Source of the DNA: Mytilus galloprovincialis
Taxonomy: Eukaryota
Reading direction: 5' to 3'
Length of the DNA stretch: 64,000 nucleotides
Assembly: GCF_965363235.1 (NCBI RefSeq)
Contig: NC_134842.1
Location: 20,221,521 to 20,285,520 of the forward strand
The notes below the pieces were generated by a model that had not been told where the DNA came from, ran no database searches, and saw only the letters and a program-made list of their open reading frames with translations. A program made the position numbers and the translations under genes. Positions 2,886-41,944 of the stretch are shown here, in pieces. Positions within the stretch are counted from its first letter, which is position 1, and each line of letters opens with the position of its first letter.

Positions 2886-4229
2886 TTTTACATATTTGAG
2901 CTGTATAATGAATCTCGAATTTATTTCATAAATATATAAAAGATTGGTCACCAAACATATAAAGTTGTATTTGTTAGTTGAAAAATAGGTTTTAAAAGGC
3001 GTCATCACAGATATCAGGGACTCTTTTCACAAAATTGCTTCAGATTGTAAATTCACGTAAGTCAGAAACATTTCGGAAAAGTTATGAATTTTTATCGTAG
3101 GTTATTTTGTTATAATCAAAGGCTTATAACTTGTTACGTACGTCAGACGTTTCGTCTATATACAAACCAGTAGCGACACCCGAATCAAAACAGCTTTCGG
3201 AGGTCAAATCTGATATGAAGATGATGAATATTGAAAACCAAATACCGTGAAATTGTGTAAAATACATCAGAGGCAATGCATGCTTTAGATATTAAATTCT
3301 CAATGTTTCGAAAAATCACCGTTTCATTGATATATCATATAAACATAGTAGTGGCTGGTGATAATATTTTGGGCGAAACTCTCTCCCGCAGTTACATCTA
3401 CTCAGTAGATGAAATACTGATCAAATATCCTATATTTTGTTAAGCAACGTGCTCATTAAAAAAAGAGAAAACAACACCTTAAATAATTCATGCATCCGAA
3501 GCGCTTTTCATGACATACTTTTATTCGGAACACACAAATCCGACATTTGAAAGCCGATGATGTTAAAAACCGAAACAGTTGAAGTGCTATTTAACCATTT
3601 TGGATTTTAAAGTACCAGACACAATATTTGTGTTTCATTAATTTTTTCAACTTTGCCAAATAAGGAGAGGTAACTCAGATAGTAGGTGAGATAAATTTCA
3701 TAATAGAAAGGGTTCGGAATTTACCTATTTTAGTATGTAGCAAGAAAACAAGTCTGATGATCTTCTTATTTGAAAATATATTATAAGAGCTATCTTCTCT
3801 CATTTATCTTCAAATTATATAAGGTAGTTTTCTTTTTTTCACACAAAATCCGATAAGTTTGATGAAAACTTCATTTTGACAAATTTAAAAACAAATCTAT
3901 GGAATTTAATTAAGACAGCCCATTCATCCTAAATATGATAGATGACTTTGATAGTTTTAGTACAATCAAGGCAATCTTTTGGTATCTCGTTTTTTATTTG
4001 TTCTAACATTGGATTCCATGTCGAGGTGCAGTTAAACAAAATCTAAGTAATACCTTTCTTTAAAGATCTTCGATGTTCTTCTATTCTAACTTGAAATGGA
4101 TTTAAAAGTGTATTGTGTTCTCTCATACCATACAACAAGCCATTAGGTAGAGTGTTAAGTACTCATAAAAAGTAGGAATCCCGACCATGACCAGTATCGG
4201 TGTCTTTCTATAGTTATGTATATAAAAGA

Positions 4230-4385: not shown

Positions 4386-7300
4386 CTAAATATTTTATAA
4401 CGTCTAAAAGTTGAACACATTCGTAGCTTCTTGTGACTGACTGAGGATAAGTTTAAATAGGTTGATCTTAAAATCTCTATATGTTGGTTATTGGTGGTTG
4501 ATAGGGTACTGTGTCATTATCATCATTTCAAAGTACACATTTTTCAAATCTTTATATCTTAATTCAAAAATTTATACTAGGAAATATTATGTTTGATATA
4601 AATGTACTTGTTTTGAAGACACCCTTTGAAACTGTTAAAACAAATAGATTTTCCGACATAACTGATTCCAATCAGTTTTAGACCAAATGCATATGATATT
4701 TGTGTAATGAAAAATTTATGTACATTTGTAATTAAAAAAAATTCTGTAAGGTTAAGGCAACTGTAGTTTACCGATGTCATTATTTGGAATAGAAACCATC
4801 ATTTTTGGAAAATCACACACCACACAACATCCTTATCTGGTATCTAAAGATCTACGAGAAAGAAAACATGCCTCTAGTGAGTTCGGACACAGAACCATTG
4901 TCGTGATAATGACCGTAAAACTTATGAAGTGTTGATTGAAATCGTTTCCCTAGATATATCTGTTTGAACAGTTTTTGTACTTTTTAGTGTTAAAACATAT
5001 GAAAGTTTTTAACTCCCTCAGGCAAAGTTGTGCCTACTTGTAATCTTCAACATATTGAAGTTAAGAAGTATTTTGTAGATGTAGATGTAGATGGATTTGG
5101 TATGCTTTTTTGTATTTCAGTTCTTATACATCCCTGGCTTTCAAATATTCGTCTTGGATCGTTCCTTGTGAAGGTATATCTAGAAAAGCGCTTCGGATTC
5201 TTGGAATTTATAATGTGTAGTTTTTTTTTTAAATGCCATTCATTGACCTTTATTTGGTAGCTAGGAAACGATATTTATTAATACTCATTTGTCGGTCTTT
5301 ATTCCTCATACTACTTTTGTACAACAAAAACATGCCATTTTTTCATAAAGCTATGAAGAATTGTATATATTTATAACTGTATCTAAGACTATAAATTTTA
5401 TAAAGATAGAAAAAAATTTGCATTTGAGAATCGGAATATAGCATTAATGTAAAAAAAAGTTAGTCAACGTTGTATTTTTAAAATGAATAGTGACATGGAT
5501 AATTCGTTAAATGAATTAAAGCGTACACGAATTTCGAGAAACCGACAGACAGCATTCTAAACTGTCAGTCACCGTGCGTTGTCTCGCATCAATTTGATTA
5601 AAAAACTTTCCAAGTTGATGGCATCAGATTTGCGAAACATTATGTAAAGTGTCAATCAGTCTGATTTATTATAACTACTCTGTTTAAACATTGGAAAAAC
5701 AAATATTCCCTAAGTGGATTATGCAAATGAGTTTTCATGTTTAGTGAAACTTGATGTATTTCTTTAGATTAGTTTAAACAAATATCTTGATGTCAAGTTA
5801 TTCAATCATGTCCGTTCATGCAAGTAATATAAAATTGAATACATTGATAACCTTAGCAGTATTTGGCAAAACATTTAGGAATTTTTGGTCCTTAATGCTC
5901 TTCAATTTCGAACTTTATAGGCGTTTTTCAATCTTTTTTTATCCGAACGTCACTGATGAGTCTTTTGGCCTTACGTCTGGCGCAAATACTAAATTTCAAT
6001 CCTCGTATCAATGATGAAATTCTTGGGTTTTTTTTCCTATTTTACTTAATTTTATATTTGTGGATCCAACACAATTGTAGCATTTTTTTTGCAGTAAAAA
6101 CGTAAATTTTCAAAAATACCAAACTTCCAGGAAATTTCAAAAACATACCCAATCAAATGGCAAAATTAAAAGCTCAAAACACATCAAACAAATGAAGTTA
6201 TTTCTGTGTAGGAAATGGTGAATGAAACCTGGTTTTATAACTAGCGAAACGTCTCATTTACATTACAGTCGCACCAAAAAATCCTTAATATTGTTTACAT
6301 TGTGTGAACAAAGCAAACAGACATAATAGGTTAAATTGTCAACGATAGGTAGATATATTGTGTATTGCTACAAAAAATGTGTTTACTCTAGGATAACATG
6401 CAATGTATCACACAAAAGGATATATAAGTAGCATAAAAACAATAATAAAGTTAAGAATAAAAATGGGGAATTTGATAAAGGGACAACAATTCGATAAAAT
6501 TGACGAACACAGCTGAAGGTCACAAAAAGTTCTACAACACAGCGATATATTTTCGCTTCTGGAGGCGGGCTTCAGCTGACCCATACCTAAAAATGTGTAC
6601 ACGTTCAGTGAAAATTTCAAAAAACATATAAAAGAACTAAAATAAAAAATCATAAAAGACTAAAAAAGGACGGAGGCTCCTAACTTGGGATAGGCACAAA
6701 CATGCGGCGGGGTTAAACATGTTTTGTGATGTCTCAATCCTGCACCTATATCGCTATCCAGTTAAGACAAAAACAAAAACAAAGCAAGACGCACAGTAAA
6801 ACTTAATTCTATAGAAGTCAGAGTTCAATGTTAGAATCGGTAATCAAAACAAACTTAGAAAAATGAAAAATGATACATAAATTAACAAAGGTCTACTAAT
6901 AGATATGACATGCAAGCTTCAGACCTCAATTAAACTAATTCTATATCTAAGTCAAACACAATCCTTCCTGTTATGAGTTTAGTATATTGCCCTCATTAAA
7001 GAAATGAGAAGAACTGAACCTGTATCATGCATACAACTGGTTTAAGAACAAATTTGTTTAAGCACTCGCGACAAAAGGCTAAAATGTTGTGGACTGAAAG
7101 CATATCTAAATGTTTATAGTTAATAAAACATATGTAAATACTCATGTTCTTGTCTAAATGGTAACTCAAGCGCCTTTTATAAAATGAAATTCATATGAAT
7201 TTCATACGCAATGGTATTAATAACTTCTAATCTCGAAGTATAGATCCATCAATATGTGTACCGAGCTTGTAACTAAACAATGAACACAAATTAAGACAAC

Positions 7301-7930
7301 AATTGAAGTGTTTCCTACTTTGAGATATTTGACGATGGATACGCCATTATAACGCACGACTGGCACAAATGTAGAATCCTAATTCTGGTATCTTATCTAT
7401 GATGAGTATATATACATATAACTTGTGACAATCTTTAATGACGAAATTAATCAGATGCGATTATAGTATCACAGTAAAGTTATCCTCTGCAAATTTGGAT
7501 TTATCGAACATTTAATTATGTTCTTGATTTGTTAACTCGCGAACCCTTCCTCTATATCTGTTTATGTTCATTATATCAAACCAAATAAATTAAACTCTGC
7601 TGATGATTGATATATATTTGAACGCTGCTTTTGCTAAAATACAAACGTACACAAATGACAGATTATTTCGTAAACAATTGTGACAGTCGTAGATAAATGG
7701 CACTAGAAGGTGCCCGTGAAATCCAGAAACAATTGAACAAGTGTTGAAACAAATAGTTTTAAAACTGTGTGGTCAGTACGTCGACTGCATATGCGCGAAA
7801 GCGTTAAAGACTCGGATCGATAACGGTCTCCGAATTTGGTTATTTTCTCAAAAAGTGCCGTTTTCTGTGGAACAAAATATTTTATAATAATTTAGGAAGT
7901 ACAAAACACTGCATTTATACGTCATATCTT

Positions 7931-7961
<31 letters not shown>

Positions 7962-10427
7962 TGGTGCGGCTCAACGAAATCGGTCTCTTTCTTAATTCGT
8001 ATAGATTATAATTTAAAAGGAAATCCATTCTCGTTTATCACTTGGTAAATCTGTGTTTCATTTAATTTTTACCTCGTGTGTATGAACTTCATATCTCGTT
8101 TTCTATTTCTGTGTATGCATATTTTCTAAAATGAACGAGTTGATTATTTTTGTTCTTTGATAGAAAATTGACGCCTTCGTAAGACCTTAATTGAACGGAT
8201 TTGAAATAATTAGTAATATTAGAGTTAAAAGATTATTTTTCGAATGCCAACTAGAAAATGTTTCCAATAAATGAAAGACTTTTACACTTTTAAATTGGCT
8301 TTAATCTTACAAATCAAAAGAAATTTAGAATGGATCGTGCAAATGGTAATAAATGCATCAAGTTGGATAGATAAAAGAAGCTAAGTACTTAATGATTTAA
8401 AATCAAACACATTGTATGAGACTAGTAGATCTTTTGAATAAAAAGAACGAAATGACTTATAGAGCAGATTAGACAAATATTGTGTTTGTTTATTCAACTC
8501 TAAATAAGAATTTTCCTAGAGTACATGTTTAAAAAGACAAATCCAATGACAATCTTACAAGGAATGACTGCAATACATTTTCTATCTACTTGAAATAATC
8601 TACAAAATGTGATGTACACCTTTAAATAACCACCTACGAGGATTATTGAGCGTGCAACACCGTGTTAATGTTATTTTTCGTAGACAAAAAAAATATCAAA
8701 GTGGTTCCTGAATAAACAGACACTATTGGTTCTTTTGAATTGATAACATAATAATCTATAATTATGATTTTACTTTTTATGGATCGATCCCCTACAGACT
8801 CACGTGCAAATAATAAAAACAATGTCAAATGTTAAATGGATATTTGAGAAAATAAAGATAACTGTCAGAAAGGCTGACTATCATAAAAGATTGTTTCACC
8901 TTTTTCTAACAACATAAACAAAGACTTTCTTAACTTTTTTTTAAATAAGATGTTGATACTTCTTGACAGAAAACACCAACAAATATGTCGTCGCGAACTT
9001 TCCAAATCTTTATGCATCCAGGAATATAAATAAAAAAATAGATTGAGTATAAGAACAATGCAAACGTGAAAATAAAGTTTTTCAATTTTCATAATTTCAG
9101 AAAGAAAATTTGGCATGCATATAGTTCATCGGAAATCTACAATGTTATACTTCATTACTTTTATTTAACTTTATCTGGATAATAGGGAAAAACCTGAAGG
9201 GATAGAACAAGGAATCATTGTTGCTTCAGAACACTGGTGTCGACGAACTATTACAATGTTATGAAAAGTCTGGAAATTTGGTAAACTTTACAGACGAAAT
9301 TTGGTATATAGTATCAAAAATATATCTACAATTTTACACTCATTACATCCAATTAATTTTATCTTGATAATTAAAAATACCCGAACGGGCATAACACGGA
9401 ATCATTGGTTTTTCATAAATTGTAACACCTGTGTCGATGAACGTTTGCAATGTAACAATCAATTTACGTGAACTGCCTTAGGTCCGTATATAGGATAGAT
9501 AGTAGATAACAAGAAATACATCATCAAACTAAAGGAATAAATGTTAAAAGTTGATCTTAGAGAATAATAACATTCACAGCAAATAACATTATATTATCAA
9601 ATATTTTTTATGTGTTTTGCTCTATAATTATTATGCATTATATTTTTCTTCTAACGATCGACGATTTTTTTTTTATTAAAACGTGGCATGAAAAAAGTAT
9701 TTGAAACATAACCATTTGTTCTCCCATGCATTCCGCAGAACAAGTGACAAGTGACAGAGCGATTTTCTCTCTCAAAACAATGTGAAAAAAGAAAAGGAAC
9801 ACAATTCTTTAATTTAAAATATGAGTCATACCGATTACAAACAAAAAATCCTTCTTTCTGCGTCTTCCCATTATTCATCATATTGTTCTATTCAGCAGGA
9901 ACTGAAATCATTACAAAACGAAAAACTAATTTTGTTTTAATTTTGTGTTTAGACGAAATGATAGCCAGGGAATTGAAGCAAGTCTTTTGTATTTAGTTTT
10001 CATTAAATAAACCACAAAACATAGGATCCTAGAATTGCTCTCAGCTGTTGATCATAGACGACAAATTCTCCTGAGTCATTTTAGTGACACACTTAATTAT
10101 TCATTTAGGTTCTGATTTTCGTTGATATTGTAAGAGAGAACATAAGGTTGTCCATATTTAGATGTCGCTTTACTGTATCGTTAATATACAAAGGGCACAA
10201 CGCCACTGAGTTTTTAAATGTATTAAGGTTAAAACAAATATGTCTTTATGTTCTGTTGAATATTATTTTATTTTCGAAATTGTGATCTTAAAGAAAGTAT
10301 TTCTATTTTAGAACCTTTTATTTGAAATGAAATGATTGGATAGGTTAACAATTGAATTGATAAACTGCCAATATAGTACTGTCTAGAGAAAAAAAATATT
10401 ACTATAAAAAGAAATAAAAACCTCCAT

Positions 10428-24770: not shown

Positions 24771-25740
24771 CAAATATGATCATCTGTTGTTAAGCCTATC
24801 TATATCGCCGCGGTATAGCCCTAAGGCGCTGATACAGCGTTTAGCAAACATAAATCAATCAAACCTTAGTTATAATAATTGAAGTTTATACATCGGTGTT
24901 CTTTTGAAATTATTCTCTTTGGTGGTTGCATCTAATTGTAATTAGAACCATATTTTGGGATGGTGTATCTGTTTGGATTACACTGTGCTGATACATGTTT
25001 TGTTAAAAGTACATGTTACAAAACAGTACAAATTACTACAATGGTAAACAGAATAACAGCACTAATTTGAAAAACTACAGAGCACTTTAACTTGTCCCAA
25101 ATGATTTGCTATTAATATTTTGCAAAAGACATATTAAAGCCAAGTGTTTCATGTTCCCTTTTATAGTCAGTTCAAGTCAATTCCATTAGTAGATTCCCTT
25201 TATCTTTCTACCAAATTCTCTTAAATTGCAGCAATCGTAAACATCTAAAAACCTTTCCAATGCAATACAATATTCCTAAGCGACTCAATAGATCAGACGT
25301 TATAGGGTTTGATTGACAGTAACCGTGTTATCCGATAGAATTATAATGTTTATTCACTAATCTGGTCATATTGATTCCTAGGTCTGGCTTTAATAGAAAA
25401 GCAACAGTAGGAGAATTCACTTGTTGGAATGGCTTAGTATGGACAACACGTTGTCGGGAAATGGAATTAAAGACAACTATATATCCGATATCACCCACGT
25501 GAAATGTTACGTTAATCACATTTATTTAAACTTACAATCTGGGAAAATGTGAAAGTTTTATTTAATTATTAGATTTCGTTTCGAGAATATTGTCGAGAAT
25601 TTAAACGCGTAATTACTTATATATCTCAGTTGATAAATCATTATTTTCATTCAAATACGGAAAAATGATGGCCCAACATCGCAATGAGGAAAACAATTGC
25701 TATGTTTATTTTTTTACAATAAGTAATTAATATAGCACAA

Positions 25741-25748
25741 TATAAATG
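25741..25748 (+). promoter_or_regulatory. Candidate TATA box (TATAAATG) 34 nt upstream of the LHFPL-like ATG
   Basis: tataaatgg motif. The 5'UTR would be very short unless a 5' non-coding exon exists upstream. Confidence 0.2.
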
Positions 25749-25781
25749 GTGAAGATATAATAAACATGCGATCTATATAAA

Positions 25782-26148
25782 ATGAACAAACTTGTGTATT
25801 CCATATGGATATTGTTGACAATTGCTATAACGATTTTAACAATATTTTGTATATTTAACCCTGCATGGTATATACACAATAACCATATACATTCATTTGG
25901 ATTGACAGTATTCTGTGAGGGATTATCAACCGAGGATCAACAAATTCAAAGTCGGTGCCAAACATACGGAGGAACATTTGGTCTGGCGAACATACCATCT
26001 GGAGCGTGGCAAGCTTCGTTTTTGTTAATTTCTACAGGAGCATTTTCTTTCGGAGTCACTGTGATATTGGGAATATTGATACATTGTATCAGAGAGAGAT
26101 ACGTCTACAGTATAAGTTCACTTGTGCTATATCTACAAACATCGGCAG
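25782..26148 (+). CDS. LHFPL-like: Tetraspan membrane protein (LHFPL/TMHS-like) exon 1; ends in phase 1 at GCAG|gtaagt
   Basis: ORF MNKLVYSIWILLTIAITILTIFCIFNPAWYIHNNHIHSFGLTVFCEGLSTEDQQIQSRCQTYGG...ASFLLISTGAFSFGVTVILGILIHCI...LQTSA. TM1, a Cys-containing extracellular loop and TM2 are present. The (N/Q)P(A/Y)W(Y)I ... FGL..(F/Y)C.G motif resembles the LHFPL family. Canonical donor G|GTAAGT at 26149. Confidence 0.6.
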
Positions 26149-26649
26149 GTAAGTCCTGTAACATGATTTGCAGGTTTAAAAAACAAATCGGTATGATAAA
26201 TATCACTATAGTAGACAAATTAGTTTATATCAGCAATTATTATGCCCTGATATTACCTTTATTTTTTTTTATGTTTATTGTAATTTTACAAAAACGGATA
26301 TTTATGTTTTTGTTTAATCATATAATATTATTCTTTAGTCATTTTTCAAGGCTAATTTGTAGTGAACAAAAAAATCGGAATTTATCAAACATCATAAAGT
26401 AATCATCACTTCAAGGGCGTTGAAATTCTGAAAATGTTAAAGTAAGGCTAATCATCTTTACAGAATTTAAGATGACATGGTAGGCAAATATCCAAATATG
26501 ACTGCTTTAAGACTTAACAGAAAAATCTGTTAAAAAAATGTACTGGAGGAAGTAGGCCAGCTCTGTCGAACAAAAAGTAGAATTTTCTTTTGTAGATCCA
26601 TTTTGCCTTCATACTTGTTGTCAGACTTCACTTTGTTTGCAAAATATTT

Positions 26650-27420
26650 AGCTTTGAGGTTGAAAGATCAATGAAAAACCCGAATAAACAGTAAACTATA
26701 TCTATTATGCCGGGGTCACATATTGGCATATAGACCGGCGTGCACCAAATGTACAGAGAAAATTGGCAAAGTCGGTATACGCTAGTTGCACGCCAGAGAA
26801 GGCTAAGCAATCGTTAAACGCGCGTTGTTTAAGTTTGAATTACGTCGAAATACAAAGGTATACGCTTGGAGAACGCTTCAACTGGAGGAAATTTTGCAGC
26901 ATAAACATTTTCATCCAACTGAAGCGTGTGTCTAGCGTATACCTGTACGCTACACGTACGTTATACATACGCTACAAGCGAGTTTAACGCGCTACAGATA
27001 AGTTTGAGACACGTTTAGGGCACGTTTTATACGCTTCGAGATCGTTCGACTTTAACTTAAACGTATGCGGGTGTGTTTGTAACAAACACCATCTAATTGA
27101 ACGTCCAAGATACGACCGGGACGCGTCTCAAATATGTTAAAGAAACTTTTTTTCCTCGTAGCGTGTATTCATCTACGTTAGACAAACGCCAGGCATACAC
27201 AACCATACGTTTCTTGAAGGCCCGATAAACGCGTAGGTACGCTTCTCGTACGCCCAATTCACGATTAAAGCTCGTTGTGCACACGTTACAGATTTGATTG
27301 ACAGGTTGAATGCATCCAAAATTACTAACGTATTGGCAGCGGACATGATTTTCTAACACGCCCGGCGTACGTCGGAGCAATACGCTGATTTGTGACGCCG
27401 GTATTAGATAATACAGGTCG
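26650..27420. other. CpG-rich, GC-elevated block inside the LHFPL-like intron
   Basis: Dense ACGCG, CGTACG and TACGC motifs in an otherwise CpG-poor, AT-rich region. It carries overlapping long ORFs on both strands (26763-26987 +, 27093-27440 -) with no recognisable domain. Confidence 0.6.
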
Positions 27421-27512
27421 TATTTTTGAAATGAAAACATATTTCGTAAATAAATATTGTTCTAGTATACTTTTCCTAAAAATATTTACAATGTTTTATA
27501 TATATTTTTCAG

Positions 27513-27739
27513 TTTTGTTGATAATCTCGGCATTAGTTACATTTCCGGTAGGACTCAGCTCTCACTACTTCCGGTACTACTGCGGGGATTCTGCGTCTGT
27601 GTTTTATTCAGCTAACTGTTCCATAGGATGGAGTTATATGCTGGCAATCATGTCTGTATCACTGTCAATATTCTGCCCAGTTCTTTGGTGCTTTAAGGAA
27701 ATGAAATGGAATGAGTTTCAGTTTAAGGAATATGTATAG
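27513..27739 (+). CDS. LHFPL-like: Tetraspan membrane protein (LHFPL/TMHS-like) exon 2 (terminal, TAG at 27737-27739)
   Basis: Acceptor tatatttttcag at 27510-27512. Phase 1 joins G+TT to give ...SAVLLIISALVTFPVGLSSHYFRYYCGDSASVFYSANCSIGWSYMLAIMSVSLSIFCPVLWCFKEMKWNEFQFKEYV*. This supplies TM3, the second extracellular loop with C..C and a conserved W, and TM4. It resembles the C-terminal half of TMHS/LHFPL proteins (C.I.W..MLAI.S). Total about 197 aa. Confidence 0.6.
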
Positions 27740-30179
27740 TTAAGTCAAGAGAAAAAGTATATTAACTTTTTATATGAAGATTAAAAACAACCACATATTC
27801 ATATGTTTGAAATAATTCAATGACGTTACGTAAAAGCTTTACTCACCCTGAACTCTTATACCTATCCATATTTTATCATACATTTTTGCCAAGTAACCAT
27901 ATCTCGATTATTTGTTTTAAGTTGATAAGTATTGTTTATCTCTTTGCAGTCTAAAAATAACGACGAAAAATATCGAGATTTTTAAAAAAATATCCCAAAT
28001 AAGGATCCTTATACTATTCCATACCTTTTAAGGTGCTTGCATATTATTTTTTTATCAAAATATAAATTTGAAAATATTAATAACATTTTTTCAGATTGCA
28101 GCTGTAATTTCAAAATCTGAAATATTTGTTTGTTACATGATATTTGAAGTAACGTTTAAAGCTGCATTTTACGATTTTGGAATAACAAGGCCGTATGAAT
28201 TTTATAAATCTAAACAATTCATTTTCAAAAGACCGATTTGATATGTGTTAGCTGAATATGTTTCTCCTTACATCAGACATTTTTGCTAGAATTAATTCGC
28301 AATGATTGGAAACGTTTCCTGTTAGGTCTTTACAGTAAATACGTATTTAACCATTCAACAAAGGGATAATTATACATTTAATTACTGAAAACAGCCATTC
28401 AATTGGCATTATCCATAGAATACAATAAAGTATGACCTAAGACCATTGACACAGATAAATTCCTTTCATACAAAATATTGTCCTCTAAAAAAATGTTTAA
28501 ATGACCAGTTGCTCTTTGGTCAATTCATTTACTCCATTACCCGATTTCCTGTTATTACACTTGGGGATAAATGTTTGACACAAGACCTAAATGACCATTT
28601 TTTACTACTTAGTCATTAATCATTAAAAACGTTTTCATGTCGTATTCCACATGGATAAATATACATTGCAAATGAAAAAAAAACAAACAAATGAATTGTT
28701 AAACCTTTTATTTCATTATATGTTTTTGAATATTTAAAGAAAAAAACATAATTAAAAGATTGTATTTTTTATTATCCTTTTTTATAACTTAAAGAACTCA
28801 AACCGTCTTCATGTAATCATTATTAGTAATAACAAAGAAATGTTTCAAAGAGTATTTGCTAATTTTGGTAGAGTTTATATGTTTCTGTTATATTAGAGGA
28901 AACATAATGTGCTCAGACAAAAAGCTATAATCTGTCAATGTTACATAATTACCATTATTAAGTATCTATTGTATTTAGATATTAAACTAATGTAAACTAT
29001 ACAACGAATGATTTGTTTCAAAAACATAAAACACGAATTGTATAACACTATACTTATCAGTGAAGGGGACACAACATGTTTCTTATGGTGTGTATATTTA
29101 TATGTATTATAAATAATGGTTGTGAACTTCAACAATGATAAAAAAGTTATTATAGGTTAATGTTATTTGTTGAATAAAACTATGTGTTGTTTATTTTAGT
29201 ATATACATTGCAATTGAAATAACAAAAACGCAAACGTAGCAACGTGATGATAGAATTTTCAAGTTCGCACTGCAGATGTAAAAAAAAATCATCTTTTTTA
29301 GTTATGATTGCGTAAAAGTAGAAAAGAAACCCGTCAACGGAGCGAGAAACAACAAGTTACAATATGAACTAAAATGTTAAAGTTTACATGCAAATACTAT
29401 CATGATTAAAACACTTGAAGGAATGACGAGTACATCATATTTGGTAATACATTCAACTCTCAACGAAAAATAATCCGCTTCAATTTAAAGTTAATTGTTT
29501 AAACAATAGTGTTTTATTCGACACATTGAGTATTTTATCGATAACTGAAAACAAAAAACAAAAGACACGGAATATTTCATATGTGCACAAATTACTGGAA
29601 TAGAAGACATGCGTTAAATTACTGATCTGATAACAATCAAACAAGATCTCAATACAGGCAAAAGTACTTAAATTATTGATGAAGAAAGTCTCAAATATCT
29701 AAGGGAACTTTAAAGCATCAAAGCAATGAAAAAAAACGTTAAACGCTAATTTAAGCATCAATTTGAAAAAGCTTTTAAAGATATAAGAAAACAGAAAAAA
29801 ACCCAACACAGAACCTGTAATTTCGCCAATCTGCACTAGATCTTTTTATGAGACGGTGTTGTCATTATATGAGAGAACTGTTGACCGCTCCCTAGATTCT
29901 GAGTATTGTTTGGTTTTGCATTTATTTTTTCTTAAGTTTTCTATGTAATTTTGTATCTTGTCCATTTTCATTTGACTATCATGATGTTTTTTCTATTTAT
30001 ATTTTTTTCCCGTCGTTGTGTACTGTCATCTGTTTAAACAAAAATGAGCTTATTTTTATCCAATTGATATGAAATAAACTTTGGTTGGTAATATGACAGT
30101 TGTTCTCCACTTGTCCTTTAGTTAATGACGTTTGATTTTGTCGGATTTTATGACATTCCTTCATGAAATCACTTTTAAG

Positions 30180-40662: not shown

Positions 40663-41711
40663 TTATATCATTTCAATCGTAACGTTGTGATTCTTACCCA
40701 GTTCAGTTCCGGAAATTTGTACTTGTATTTCTGTTTCCCCTAAAACCACTTGTACTTTTATGTTTTCAGTAATCGTTGGATTTGGTTTTTCAACTTTGAT
40801 TACTCCCAATTCGGAACACCCTTCTTCATCCGTATACATGGGATTTTCTTTTTCTGTTTTGAAAATATGCAACTTGAATTCTCCGCCTTCACTTGGTCGA
40901 CTTATAGCCATTGTCTTAAAAATTTTGCCTGGTTGAATGGGTTGCTTACGCTTAAGAAATGCATCGAATAGACCAATACACTTGGCTTCACCATTTACTA
41001 TTTCAAGGTGGTTCTGATCATGAATTGCAGGGTCAAATGTTTTTTTCTTCCTAAACCCATATGTACACCTCGCTATTCTGTGAGCTATGATATTTGGTTG
41101 GTGACCAAACATTACTGCGCCTTGCATAACGGCTAAATCACAGTCCTTTGGCACGATAACTGTAAGTTTGGGAAAGGTATCTTTTACTGCCTTTTGAACA
41201 AGCATGCATTGTGAAAAACCTCCAACCAAAAGAATTTGAGTTATTCCATCGCAACATTTCTCAGAAAGAATGTCTAGCATAAGTTTAATCAGAGAATCAA
41301 TTGTTAACTGAAATAAAGATGTGAATAGACTAAATTCAAATCTTATTTTGTCTCCTTTTAGTGACACTTTTGATGAAAAGTCTGAAGACTCAATAACGGA
41401 TTTTAAAGTTTGTCCCAATTGTTCCTTACAAACAAGATTCAATGCATTAGGTATTTTCATATTTATTCGCCCAGTGGTATTAGGTTTAATTGATCTCTTC
41501 TTAGTTTCAAACTCTCTCGATAGATCAAGGTAATTAGCAAGATGTTCTCCTTTTAATGCATTCATTATTGCTGGATTGGTGATTTTCTCCATCAAATTGA
41601 AAAACTCAGCATCTACTGATGTTCCCCCACAATTACTACCAGAGGCAAAATATATTTCTTTTAGTCTTCCATTATTGATTTTTTCATGAACTGTTATATC
41701 AGCTGTGCCAC
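40663..41711 (-). CDS. HSPA12-like: HSPA12-like exon 4 (terminal, includes TAA stop at 40663-40665), 1049 nt
   Basis: Minus strand ttttag|GTGGCACAGCTGATATAACAGTT completes the codon carried over from exon 3, giving G-GTADITVHEKINNGRLKEIYFASGSNCGG... and a 349-codon C-terminal part. A possible AATAAA lies 11 nt after the stop (plus tttatt at 40647-40652). Confidence 0.85.
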
Positions 41712-41944
41712 CTAAAATTTTTGAAGTTATGAATATCACATTGAATATATGTACACATTTTAATCATTTTACAATGACTTGATCTCAGCTTTCTCAGATC
41801 TGAAATCATTATCCAAACCAAAATGATATGTTTAACAGTTTCATTTTACGCAATAACATTCCTTCAAGCATATGAATTCGAAAGACATTAAATAAAGCAC
41901 AATTGTATGTTTCTTTTTCACCTGTAAAAATTGCGAACAAATGG

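What the first reader, a model, noticed from the sequence alone, without database searches (positions are those of the whole stretch)
26650..27420. CpG-rich island-like block inside the intron of the LHFPL-like gene
The window is strongly CpG-depleted and AT-rich overall, yet this roughly 770-bp stretch is packed with CG dinucleotides (ACGCGT, CGTACG and repeated TACGC(T) motifs). It supports ORFs of more than 70 aa on both strands with no recognisable protein motif. It could be an unmethylated regulatory island, an internal promoter, a recently inserted unclassified element that has escaped CpG decay, or a cryptic satellite built on a TACGC-like unit.
Basis: seen in the sequence. Interest (0 to 1): 0.55.

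Follow-up and report, generated by a model that had tools for sequence, protein, structure and literature searches.

The report
CpG-rich mobile element in mussel intron
The CpG-rich block is one copy of a roughly 700-bp non-coding "cut-and-paste" transposon that landed in the intron of a mussel (Mytilus) gene; it is CpG-rich because the element family is built from a short repeated CG-containing motif, not because it is a host regulatory island, so it is an ordinary finding.

Summary
The CpG enrichment is real: 62 CpG, observed/expected (o/e) 1.73, GC 43%, the highest CpG count of any 770-bp stretch in the 64 kb. The window itself is only mildly CpG-poor (o/e 0.87), not strongly depleted. The block is a discrete element at 26708-27403. 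It has imperfect terminal inverted repeats and a duplicated TTA on each side (26705-26707 and 27404-27406). It lies in the only intron of a Mytilus LHFPL/TMEM211-like gene. The M. edulis orthologue carries it. Two more distant mussel orthologues lack it and have no CpG-rich stretch in that intron. Other copies, 83-89% identical to the window copy, lie in unrelated mussel contigs. They are flanked by TTA/TTA or TAA/TAA and are equally CpG-rich; the family consensus has 67 CpG and o/e 1.84. Short inverted ends plus a 3-bp TWA duplication are the hallmarks of PIF/Harbinger ("Tourist-like") non-autonomous transposons. The CpGs sit in a repeated 9-bp motif, TATACGCTA, and are phased at 11 bp. I infer these are binding sites for the partner transposon's DNA-binding protein. 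CpG sites have not decayed faster than other sites. The ORFs are no longer than chance allows. Verdict: a new member of a known kind, of low interest.

The parts
26705..26707 (.). Left target-site duplication, TTA
   Evidence: The same trinucleotide flanks the right end. Other complete copies carry TTA/TTA (L012) and TAA/TAA (L013a).
26708..27403 (+). Non-autonomous DNA transposon copy, 696 bp, PIF/Harbinger-like ('Tourist-like'). The orientation is arbitrary.
   Evidence: 93.6% identical to the 701-bp family consensus built from copies in L010, L012 and L013. Absent from the orthologous intron in L003 and L004-L009.
26708..26733 (+). Left terminal inverted repeat, TGCCGGGGTCACATATTGGCATATAG
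   Evidence: It pairs with the right end at 19 of 26 positions in this copy and 23 of 26 in the consensus; the first 16 consensus bases match at 15 of 16. The two ends pair in both the MFE and the centroid folds.
27378..27403 (-). Right terminal inverted repeat (reverse complement TACCGGCGTCACAAATCAGCGTATTG)
   Evidence: The same terminus is conserved in L010, L011, L012 and L013.
27404..27406 (.). Right target-site duplication, TTA
26856..26944 (.). Central palindrome or hairpin (36-nt arms, 17-nt loop)
   Evidence: Inverted repeat I1. As RNA it folds at -41.3 kcal/mol, z = -6.95 against shuffles. The weak MIR395 hit on both strands is below the gathering score and reflects only hairpin shape. 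In L010, the loop of this hairpin was itself hit twice by other copies.
26944..26998 (+). Degenerate array of five 11-bp units with a TACGC/ACG core
   Evidence: TRF reports period 11 and 2.8 copies within this stretch. Register shown.
27236..27290 (+). Second degenerate array of five 11-bp units, each with CG in the same phase (CpGs at 27240, 27251, 27262, 27273, 27284)
25782..26148 (+). Host gene exon 1 (LHFPL/TMEM211-like). Context, not part of the element.
   Evidence: The spliced product is 99% identical to M. edulis protein P0001 and matches Pfam L_HMGIC_fpl.
26149..27512 (+). Host intron (GT...AG) that contains the element
   Evidence: Splice sites read. The spliced product matches P0001.
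27513..27739 (+). Host gene exon 2, stop codon included

Best explanation
The block is a single copy of a ~700-bp non-autonomous class II (cut-and-paste) transposon family of mussels. It inserted at a TTA in the intron of an LHFPL/TMEM211-like gene, in the lineage leading to the Mytilus edulis complex. SHOWN: it has discrete ends with imperfect terminal inverted repeats. A 3-bp TTA or TAA duplication flanks every complete copy. Copies occur in unrelated contexts, including copies nested inside each other. The element is absent from the orthologous intron of two related mussels. The family consensus is itself CpG-rich (67 CpG in 701 bp, o/e 1.84). The CpGs lie mostly in about 9-13 copies of a 9-bp motif (TATACGCTA) in both orientations and are phased at 11, 22 and 33 bp. 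INFERRED: it is moved in trans by a PIF/Harbinger-type DDE transposase together with that element's Myb/MADF-like DNA-binding protein. The phased CG-containing motifs would be that protein's terminal and subterminal binding sites, lined up on one face of the helix. The CpGs have persisted because these copies are not methylated in the mussel germ line. There is no sign that the element has a host function.
For: Composition and motifs. 11-bp phasing of CpGs: 18 pairs at lag 11 in the window copy, against a mean of 4.9 and a maximum of 15 over all lags in 5000 random placements. In the consensus the counts are 26, 16 and 13 at lags 11, 22 and 33, against a random maximum of 19. Motif count: 9 sites for the 9-mer and 13 for the 8-mer, each allowing one mismatch, against at most 6 for the 8-mer in shuffles. 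Orthologues: M. edulis L001 carries the element at 99.1% identity. L003, about 86% identical in the flanks, lacks window ~26702-27417 to 27440. L004-L009 have a 2.1-kb intron with no similarity, o/e 0.8 and no TACGCT. Other copies: ORF translations P0014-P0018 led to L010-L014. L012 holds a full copy at 87.8% identity. L013 holds two adjacent copies, L010 three nested or partial copies, and L011 and L014 hold fragments. Ends and duplications: TTA/TTA in the window and L012, TAA/TAA in L013a. Of 12 ends, 10 are TTA or TAA and the other two differ by one base. All copies have o/e 1.7-1.9. CpG-site bases changed in 41 of 641 cases (6.4%) and other bases in 170 of 2736 (6.2%). Literature: PIF/Harbinger elements have TIRs of about 15 bp and a 3-bp TSD, usually TAA or TTA. 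They need two proteins, and the Myb-like protein of Harbinger3_DR binds a 9-bp subterminal motif (PMC9710019; PMC2836001). Bivalves carry PIF-Harbinger elements and abundant MITEs (PMC10294476). TEs show little methylation in oyster (PMC3840415).
Against: No autonomous partner with matching ends was found, so the superfamily assignment rests on structure alone. Only three complete copies give paired duplications, and the window and L012 have TA just outside the TTA, so a 2-bp TA duplication (Tc1/mariner type) cannot be fully excluded. The alignment to the empty site in L003 is slightly more economical under the TA model: a 1-bp gap against a 4-bp gap (my reading). L003 also carries about 55-60 unrelated bases at the site, so it is not a clean empty site. 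Copy number in the source genome is unknown. At about 700 bp the element is at the upper end of what is called a MITE. The role of the motif as a protein-binding site is an inference, and methylation was not measured.
Confidence: 0.78

Rival explanations
1. It is the same kind of element but of the Tc1/mariner type (a Stowaway-like non-autonomous element). It would duplicate TA, have ends T(T/A)ATGCC...GGTAT, and be mobilised by a mariner/pogo-like transposase.
For: TA lies immediately outside those ends in the window, L012, L013b and L010S2. The predicted empty site AAACTATATC-TA-GATAAT aligns to L003 AAACTATATT-T-GATAGT with a single 1-bp gap. Tc1/mariner is the richest DNA-transposon superfamily in bivalves (PMC10294476).
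Against: Three of ten ends violate TA: the right flanks of L013a and L011 are AA and the left flank of L010S1 is AG. All ten of those ends are TTA or TAA under the 3-bp model, and the middle base co-varies between the two sides of each complete copy. The inverted ends are also symmetric only under the 3-bp model (TGCCGG against TACCGG).
Confidence: 0.12
2. It is a host regulatory CpG island or internal promoter of the LHFPL-like gene, or a transposon copy that has been taken over for that purpose.
For: o/e is 1.7-2.0 over about 700 bp inside a gene. CpG sites show no accelerated decay, which fits an unmethylated state.
Against: The block is not at the orthologous position in two related mussels, whose introns have o/e of about 0.8. 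The same composition is found in copies in unrelated contexts and in the family consensus. GC is 43%. The annotated M. edulis product uses only the two exons that flank the intron.
Confidence: 0.05
3. It is a satellite-like or rolling-circle (Helitron/Helentron-derived) repeat whose ~700-bp unit is amplified head to tail.
For: Two copies abut in L013 and copies cluster in L010. The interior has 11-bp periodicity. Non-autonomous Helentrons that carry tandem repeats are common in bivalves; this last point is from my own knowledge.
Against: The abutting copies in L013 are separated by two different duplications (TTA then TAA), as expected for independent insertions. There is no 5'-TC or 3'-CTRR terminus and no insertion between A and T. 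The inverted ends are symmetric and target duplications are present. The window holds one isolated copy.
Confidence: 0.04
4. It is a fragment of foreign DNA (bacterial, viral or organellar) or a degenerate protein-coding gene.
For: CpG o/e above 1 and ORFs on both strands.
Against: No match in phage records, IMG/VR, GTDB genomes or JGI metagenomes. No Pfam family. The only protein-level hits are translations of other copies of the same repeat, with shifted frames. ORF length is within chance.
Confidence: 0.01

Closest known systems
Tourist-like MITEs and other non-autonomous PIF/Harbinger elements (for example rice mPing and zebrafish Harbinger3N_DR)
   Same: Both have short terminal inverted repeats, a 3-bp TTA/TAA target duplication, no coding capacity and dispersed copies. 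Both carry a repeated short motif near the ends, like the 9-bp subterminal motif bound by the Harbinger3_DR Myb-like protein (PMC9710019, PMC2836001). The consensus end T[G/A]CCGGCGTCACACAT also loosely resembles the mPing end GGCCAGTCACAATGG (PMC4561436). That resemblance is a lead, not a test.
   Different: It is larger (about 700 bp against 430 bp for mPing). The motif fills the whole element at 11-bp phase rather than only the subterminal regions. CpG density is very high (o/e 1.84). No autonomous partner has been identified.
Stowaway-like MITEs (Tc1/mariner)
   Same: Both are non-autonomous elements with inverted ends in AT-rich targets, and TA is adjacent to several ends here.
   Different: The duplication fits TWA better than TA.
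Vertebrate-type CpG islands
   Same: Both show a local CpG excess over several hundred bp inside or near a gene.
   Different: GC is below 50%. The block is not conserved in position. It is a multi-copy mobile sequence, and its CpG excess comes from a repeated motif.
Foldback-like elements and MITEs with internal short repeats in bivalves
   Same: Both have an interior built from degenerate short repeats and a central palindrome.
   Different: The arms here are not long inverted arrays of repeats. The internal 11-bp arrays are short (about 5 units) and degenerate.

Membership tests
PIF/Harbinger non-autonomous element (Tourist-like) | 3-bp target-site duplication, TWA (TTA or TAA) | tested here: met
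   Window TTA/TTA, L012 TTA/TTA, L013a TAA/TAA. Ten of 12 ends are TWA; the exceptions are TCA in L010S3 and ATA in L014. The sample is small.
PIF/Harbinger non-autonomous element (Tourist-like) | Short terminal inverted repeats (about 15 bp) | tested here: met
   The consensus matches at 15 of 16 positions, extending to 23 of 26. The window copy matches at 19 of 26. The ends pair in the predicted fold.
PIF/Harbinger non-autonomous element (Tourist-like) | Dispersed multi-copy family with insertion polymorphism between species | tested here: met
   At least 8 copies or fragments lie in 5 unrelated contigs from two other samples. The site is filled in M. edulis and empty in L003 and L004-L009. 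Genome-wide copy number was not measured.
PIF/Harbinger non-autonomous element (Tourist-like) | No coding capacity | tested here: met
   No Pfam match. The ORF frame is not kept between copies. Open stretches are within chance.
PIF/Harbinger non-autonomous element (Tourist-like) | Ends shared with an autonomous element that encodes a DDE_Tnp_4 transposase and a Myb/MADF-like protein | not testable with these tools
   No mollusc genome or Repbase/Dfam search is available. The terminus pattern was not found elsewhere in the window or in the scanned collections.
PIF/Harbinger non-autonomous element (Tourist-like) | Extended target preference around the TWA | tested here: inconclusive
   Only about 6 sites are known. 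Three have TA just 5' of the duplication, and two nested hits lie in the element's own hairpin loop.
Tc1/mariner (Stowaway-like) | TA target-site duplication | tested here: inconclusive
   It fits 7 of 10 ends and the L003 empty site, but fails at the right ends of L013a and L011 and the left end of L010S1.
CpG island (regulatory) | Length of at least 200 bp, o/e of at least 0.6 and GC of at least 50% (the classical criteria, quoted from my own knowledge) | tested here: not met
   Length and o/e are met (1.73), but GC is 43%.
CpG island (regulatory) | Conserved at the orthologous position, associated with transcription start, unmethylated | tested here: not met
   It is absent from the orthologous introns of L003 and L004-L009. 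Methylation and transcription are not testable here.
Helitron/Helentron | 5'-TC and 3'-CTRR ends (or asymmetric ends with a 3' hairpin), no target duplication, insertion between A and T or between T and T | tested here: not met
   The ends are TGCC...GGTA, symmetric, and have a 3-bp duplication.
hAT | 8-bp target-site duplication | tested here: not met
   The flanks of the window and L012 copies share nothing beyond TTA.
Satellite DNA | Long head-to-tail arrays of the unit | tested here: not met
   There is one copy in 64 kb. Adjacent copies are separated by their own duplications. Only short, degenerate internal 11-bp arrays exist.

The most novel reading that the evidence does not exclude
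The 11-bp-phased array of CG-core 9-bp motifs that fills the whole element may be more than transposase or Myb-protein binding sites. It could act as a portable, unmethylated CpG-island-like module that the family scatters into mussel genes, or as a methylation-sensitive switch for its own mobilisation. The family also appears to insert preferentially into the loop of its own central hairpin.
Probability: 0.08. Interest if true: 0.4.

Novelty: new member of a known kind. Interest (0 to 1): 0.15.

Why it matters
It matters little beyond annotation. The finding shows that CpG-rich 'islands' in mussel introns can simply be copies of a CpG-rich transposon family, so composition alone should not be read as a regulatory signal in these genomes. 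It supplies a consensus, ends and target duplication for a Mytilus non-autonomous element that can be used for repeat masking. The insertion is present in the M. edulis complex and absent in a related mussel, so it could serve as a lineage marker. CpG and non-CpG sites have decayed at equal rates, which is a small piece of evidence that these copies are not methylated in the germ line.

Tried and rejected
- **ORF word-index search:** the 115-aa ORF (27093-27440, minus strand) found nothing. The exhaustive representative search then found translated copies.
- **Profile search:** a search with those copies added nothing new.
- **JGI metagenome scan with the ORF:** no relative.
- **DNA-pattern scan of metagenomes:** this was badly designed. 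My pattern included TAGATA, which turned out to be host flank, so its failure says nothing.
- **Corrected terminus pattern:** no match in GTDB genomes or IMG/VR.
- **Phage DNA, Rfam and tRNA:** nothing. The exception is a sub-threshold MIR395-like score on both strands of the central hairpin, which reflects generic hairpin shape.
- **Exact-protein look-ups for more orthologous introns:** nothing on record.
- **A related pair of ends at window 50597/50825:** rejected on reading the sequence.
- **MAFFT global alignment of the intron with L003:** it misplaced the gap, so I anchored the junctions by hand and with a pairwise aligner.
- **A 12-of-14 match between L003's filler and the element's interior:** about as expected by chance (my estimate is about 1 such match), so I did not take it as a remnant.
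- **Helitron, hAT, SINE/LINE (no A-rich tail) and satellite readings:** rejected on end structure.

Full report
**1. The observation**

The stretch 26650-27420 contains 62 CpG, with observed/expected (o/e) 1.73 and GC 43%. The whole window has GC 31% and CpG o/e 0.87.

Sliding 770-bp windows put this block first in the 64 kb by CpG count. The best stretch elsewhere has 32 CpG. 200-bp windows inside the block reach o/e 1.8-2.0, while the flanks are at 0.4-1.0.

TACGCT occurs 8 times against 0.10 expected from the rest of the window. Half of all CpGs are in ACG context.

The block is therefore real and far beyond chance. The ORFs of 74 aa and 115 aa exist, but they have no family match and are no longer than shuffled sequence gives.

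**2. Context**

Exon 1 (25782-26148) spliced to exon 2 (27513-27739) gives a 197-aa protein. It is 99% identical to an unnamed Mytilus edulis protein and similar to scallop "transmembrane protein 211-like / LHFPL7-like" proteins. It matches Pfam L_HMGIC_fpl with E = 2.2e-26.

The window is therefore mussel DNA. The block lies in the gene's only intron (26149-27512) and ends about 106 nt before the acceptor.

**3. It is an insertion, not a conserved island**

- The M. edulis assembly locus (L001) is 99.1% identical across 25500-28000 and carries the block.
- A Logan contig from a related mussel (L003, about 86% identical in the flanks) matches up to window 26701. It resumes at about 27418-27441, with only about 55-65 unrelated bases in between.
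- A more distant mytilid orthologue recovered from metagenomes (L004-L009) has a 2.1-kb intron. That intron has no similarity to the block, CpG o/e of about 0.8 and no TACGCT.
- A regulatory island needed by the gene would be expected at the same place in these relatives. It is not there.

**4. It is one copy of a dispersed repeat family**

A word-index protein search with the 115-aa ORF found nothing. An exhaustive search of representative proteins then found five short "proteins" that are plainly translations of related DNA. Their contigs hold further copies:

| Locus | Content |
|---|---|
| L012 | Full copy, 87.8% identical to window 26703-27406 |
| L013 | Two adjacent copies, one with an internal deletion |
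| L010 | Three nested or partial copies |
| L011, L014 | Fragments |

A 701-bp majority consensus is 93.6% identical to the window copy. A second Logan contig of the orthologous locus (L002) breaks 51 bp inside the element, as assemblies often do at repeats.

**5. Anatomy**

- **Ends.** All copies begin TGCCGGCGTCACAC and end GTGTGACGCCGGTA. These ends are inverted repeats that match at 15 of 16 positions in the consensus and at 23 of 26 when extended. The window copy matches at 19 of 26. They pair in the predicted fold.
- **Target duplication.** Immediately outside the ends lie TTA/TTA (window, L012) or TAA/TAA (L013a). Ten of twelve ends seen are TTA or TAA.
- **Adjacent and nested copies.** In L013 two copies are separated only by TTA-TAA, that is, by their own duplications. 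In L010 two further copies have landed in the TTA and TAA of the loop of the element's central hairpin.
- **Window coordinates.** The element is 26708-27403 and the duplications are 26705-26707 and 27404-27406.
- **Interior.** There is a strong central palindrome at 26856-26944 (z = -6.95). There are 9-13 copies, in both orientations, of a 9-bp motif TATACGCTA, against at most 6 in shuffles.
- **Phasing.** CpGs are phased at 11 bp. The window copy has 18 pairs at lag 11, against a mean of 4.9 and a maximum of 15 in 5000 random placements. The consensus has 26, 16 and 13 pairs at lags 11, 22 and 33. Two runs of five degenerate 11-bp units lie at 26944-26998 and 27236-27290.

**6. Why it is CpG-rich**

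The consensus itself has 67 CpG (o/e 1.84), and every copy has o/e 1.7-1.9. CpG richness is thus a property of the family, carried by the repeated CG-core motif.

An o/e well above 1 cannot arise from mere "escape from decay". Still, the copies have not decayed preferentially at CpG. Relative to the consensus, CpG-site bases changed in 41 of 641 cases (6.4%) and other bases in 170 of 2736 (6.2%). This fits the sparse, gene-body-centred methylation of invertebrates and the low TE methylation reported for oyster (PMC3840415). Methylation was not measured here.

**7. Mechanism (inferred)**

Short inverted ends plus a 3-bp TWA duplication are the structural hallmarks of PIF/Harbinger elements and their non-autonomous "Tourist-like" derivatives. 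These elements need a DDE transposase and a Myb/MADF-like DNA-binding protein. In Harbinger3_DR that protein recognises a 9-bp motif in the subterminal regions (PMC9710019; PMC2836001).

Bivalves carry PIF-Harbinger elements and many MITEs (PMC10294476).

I therefore read the element as a non-autonomous PIF/Harbinger-type transposon, and the phased 9-bp CG-core motifs as the partner protein's binding sites, set one helical turn apart. No autonomous partner was found, so this remains an assignment from structure. The loose resemblance of the ends to the mPing end GGCCAGTCACAATGG (PMC4561436) is only a lead.

**8. Rivals**

- **Tc1/mariner-type element with a TA duplication.** This fits 7 of 10 ends and aligns slightly better to the imperfect empty site in L003. 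It fails at three ends and gives asymmetric termini.
- **Host CpG island or promoter.** This is contradicted by non-conservation and by the family-wide composition. Later co-option cannot be tested here.
- **Helitron, hAT, retroposon and satellite readings.** All fail on end structure.
- **Foreign or coding origin.** This finds no support.

**9. Verdict**

The thing itself is an ordinary non-autonomous DNA transposon, a new member of a known kind. Its mildly unusual traits are the very high CpG density, the 11-bp phasing of its motif and the nested insertions into its own hairpin loop.

Noticed in passing
L010:3006-3945: Three copies of the same element are nested. Two independent insertions hit the TAA and TTA in the loop of the element's own central hairpin (junctions ...GCAGCT-TAA-TACCGG at 3210-3212 and ...AAAATTT-TCA-TGCCGG at 3691-3693). 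This suggests a self-target or an assembly of a repeat cluster.
   Followed up: partly
L013:815-830: Two copies abut, separated only by their two target duplications (GGTA-TTA-TAA-TGCC).
   Followed up: partly
window 5846-6017 and L010:892-1363: A different repeat, about 72-74% identical, is shared between the window and the unrelated mussel contig. It is presumably another interspersed element.
   Followed up: no
window 40663-41739 (-): A 358-aa ORF has a weak Hsp70 Pfam hit below the curated cut-off (18.4 bits against 20.6). It may be an exon of an HSPA12-like gene.
   Followed up: partly
window 7451-8300: This is the second-highest CpG o/e stretch of the window (about 1.6, but only 32 CpG at 32% GC). 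No repeats were found in it.
   Followed up: partly
L004-L009 (e.g. L008:2596-3078, minus strand): The orthologous intron of a more distant mytilid, recovered from ENA and JGI metagenomes, carries a called 160-aa ORF on the opposite strand with no Pfam hit. It was not examined.
   Followed up: no
window 27521-27523: The window has ATA where M. edulis (L001) and L003 have ATG (Ile against Met in exon 2). This is one of the few coding differences from the M. edulis assembly.
   Followed up: no
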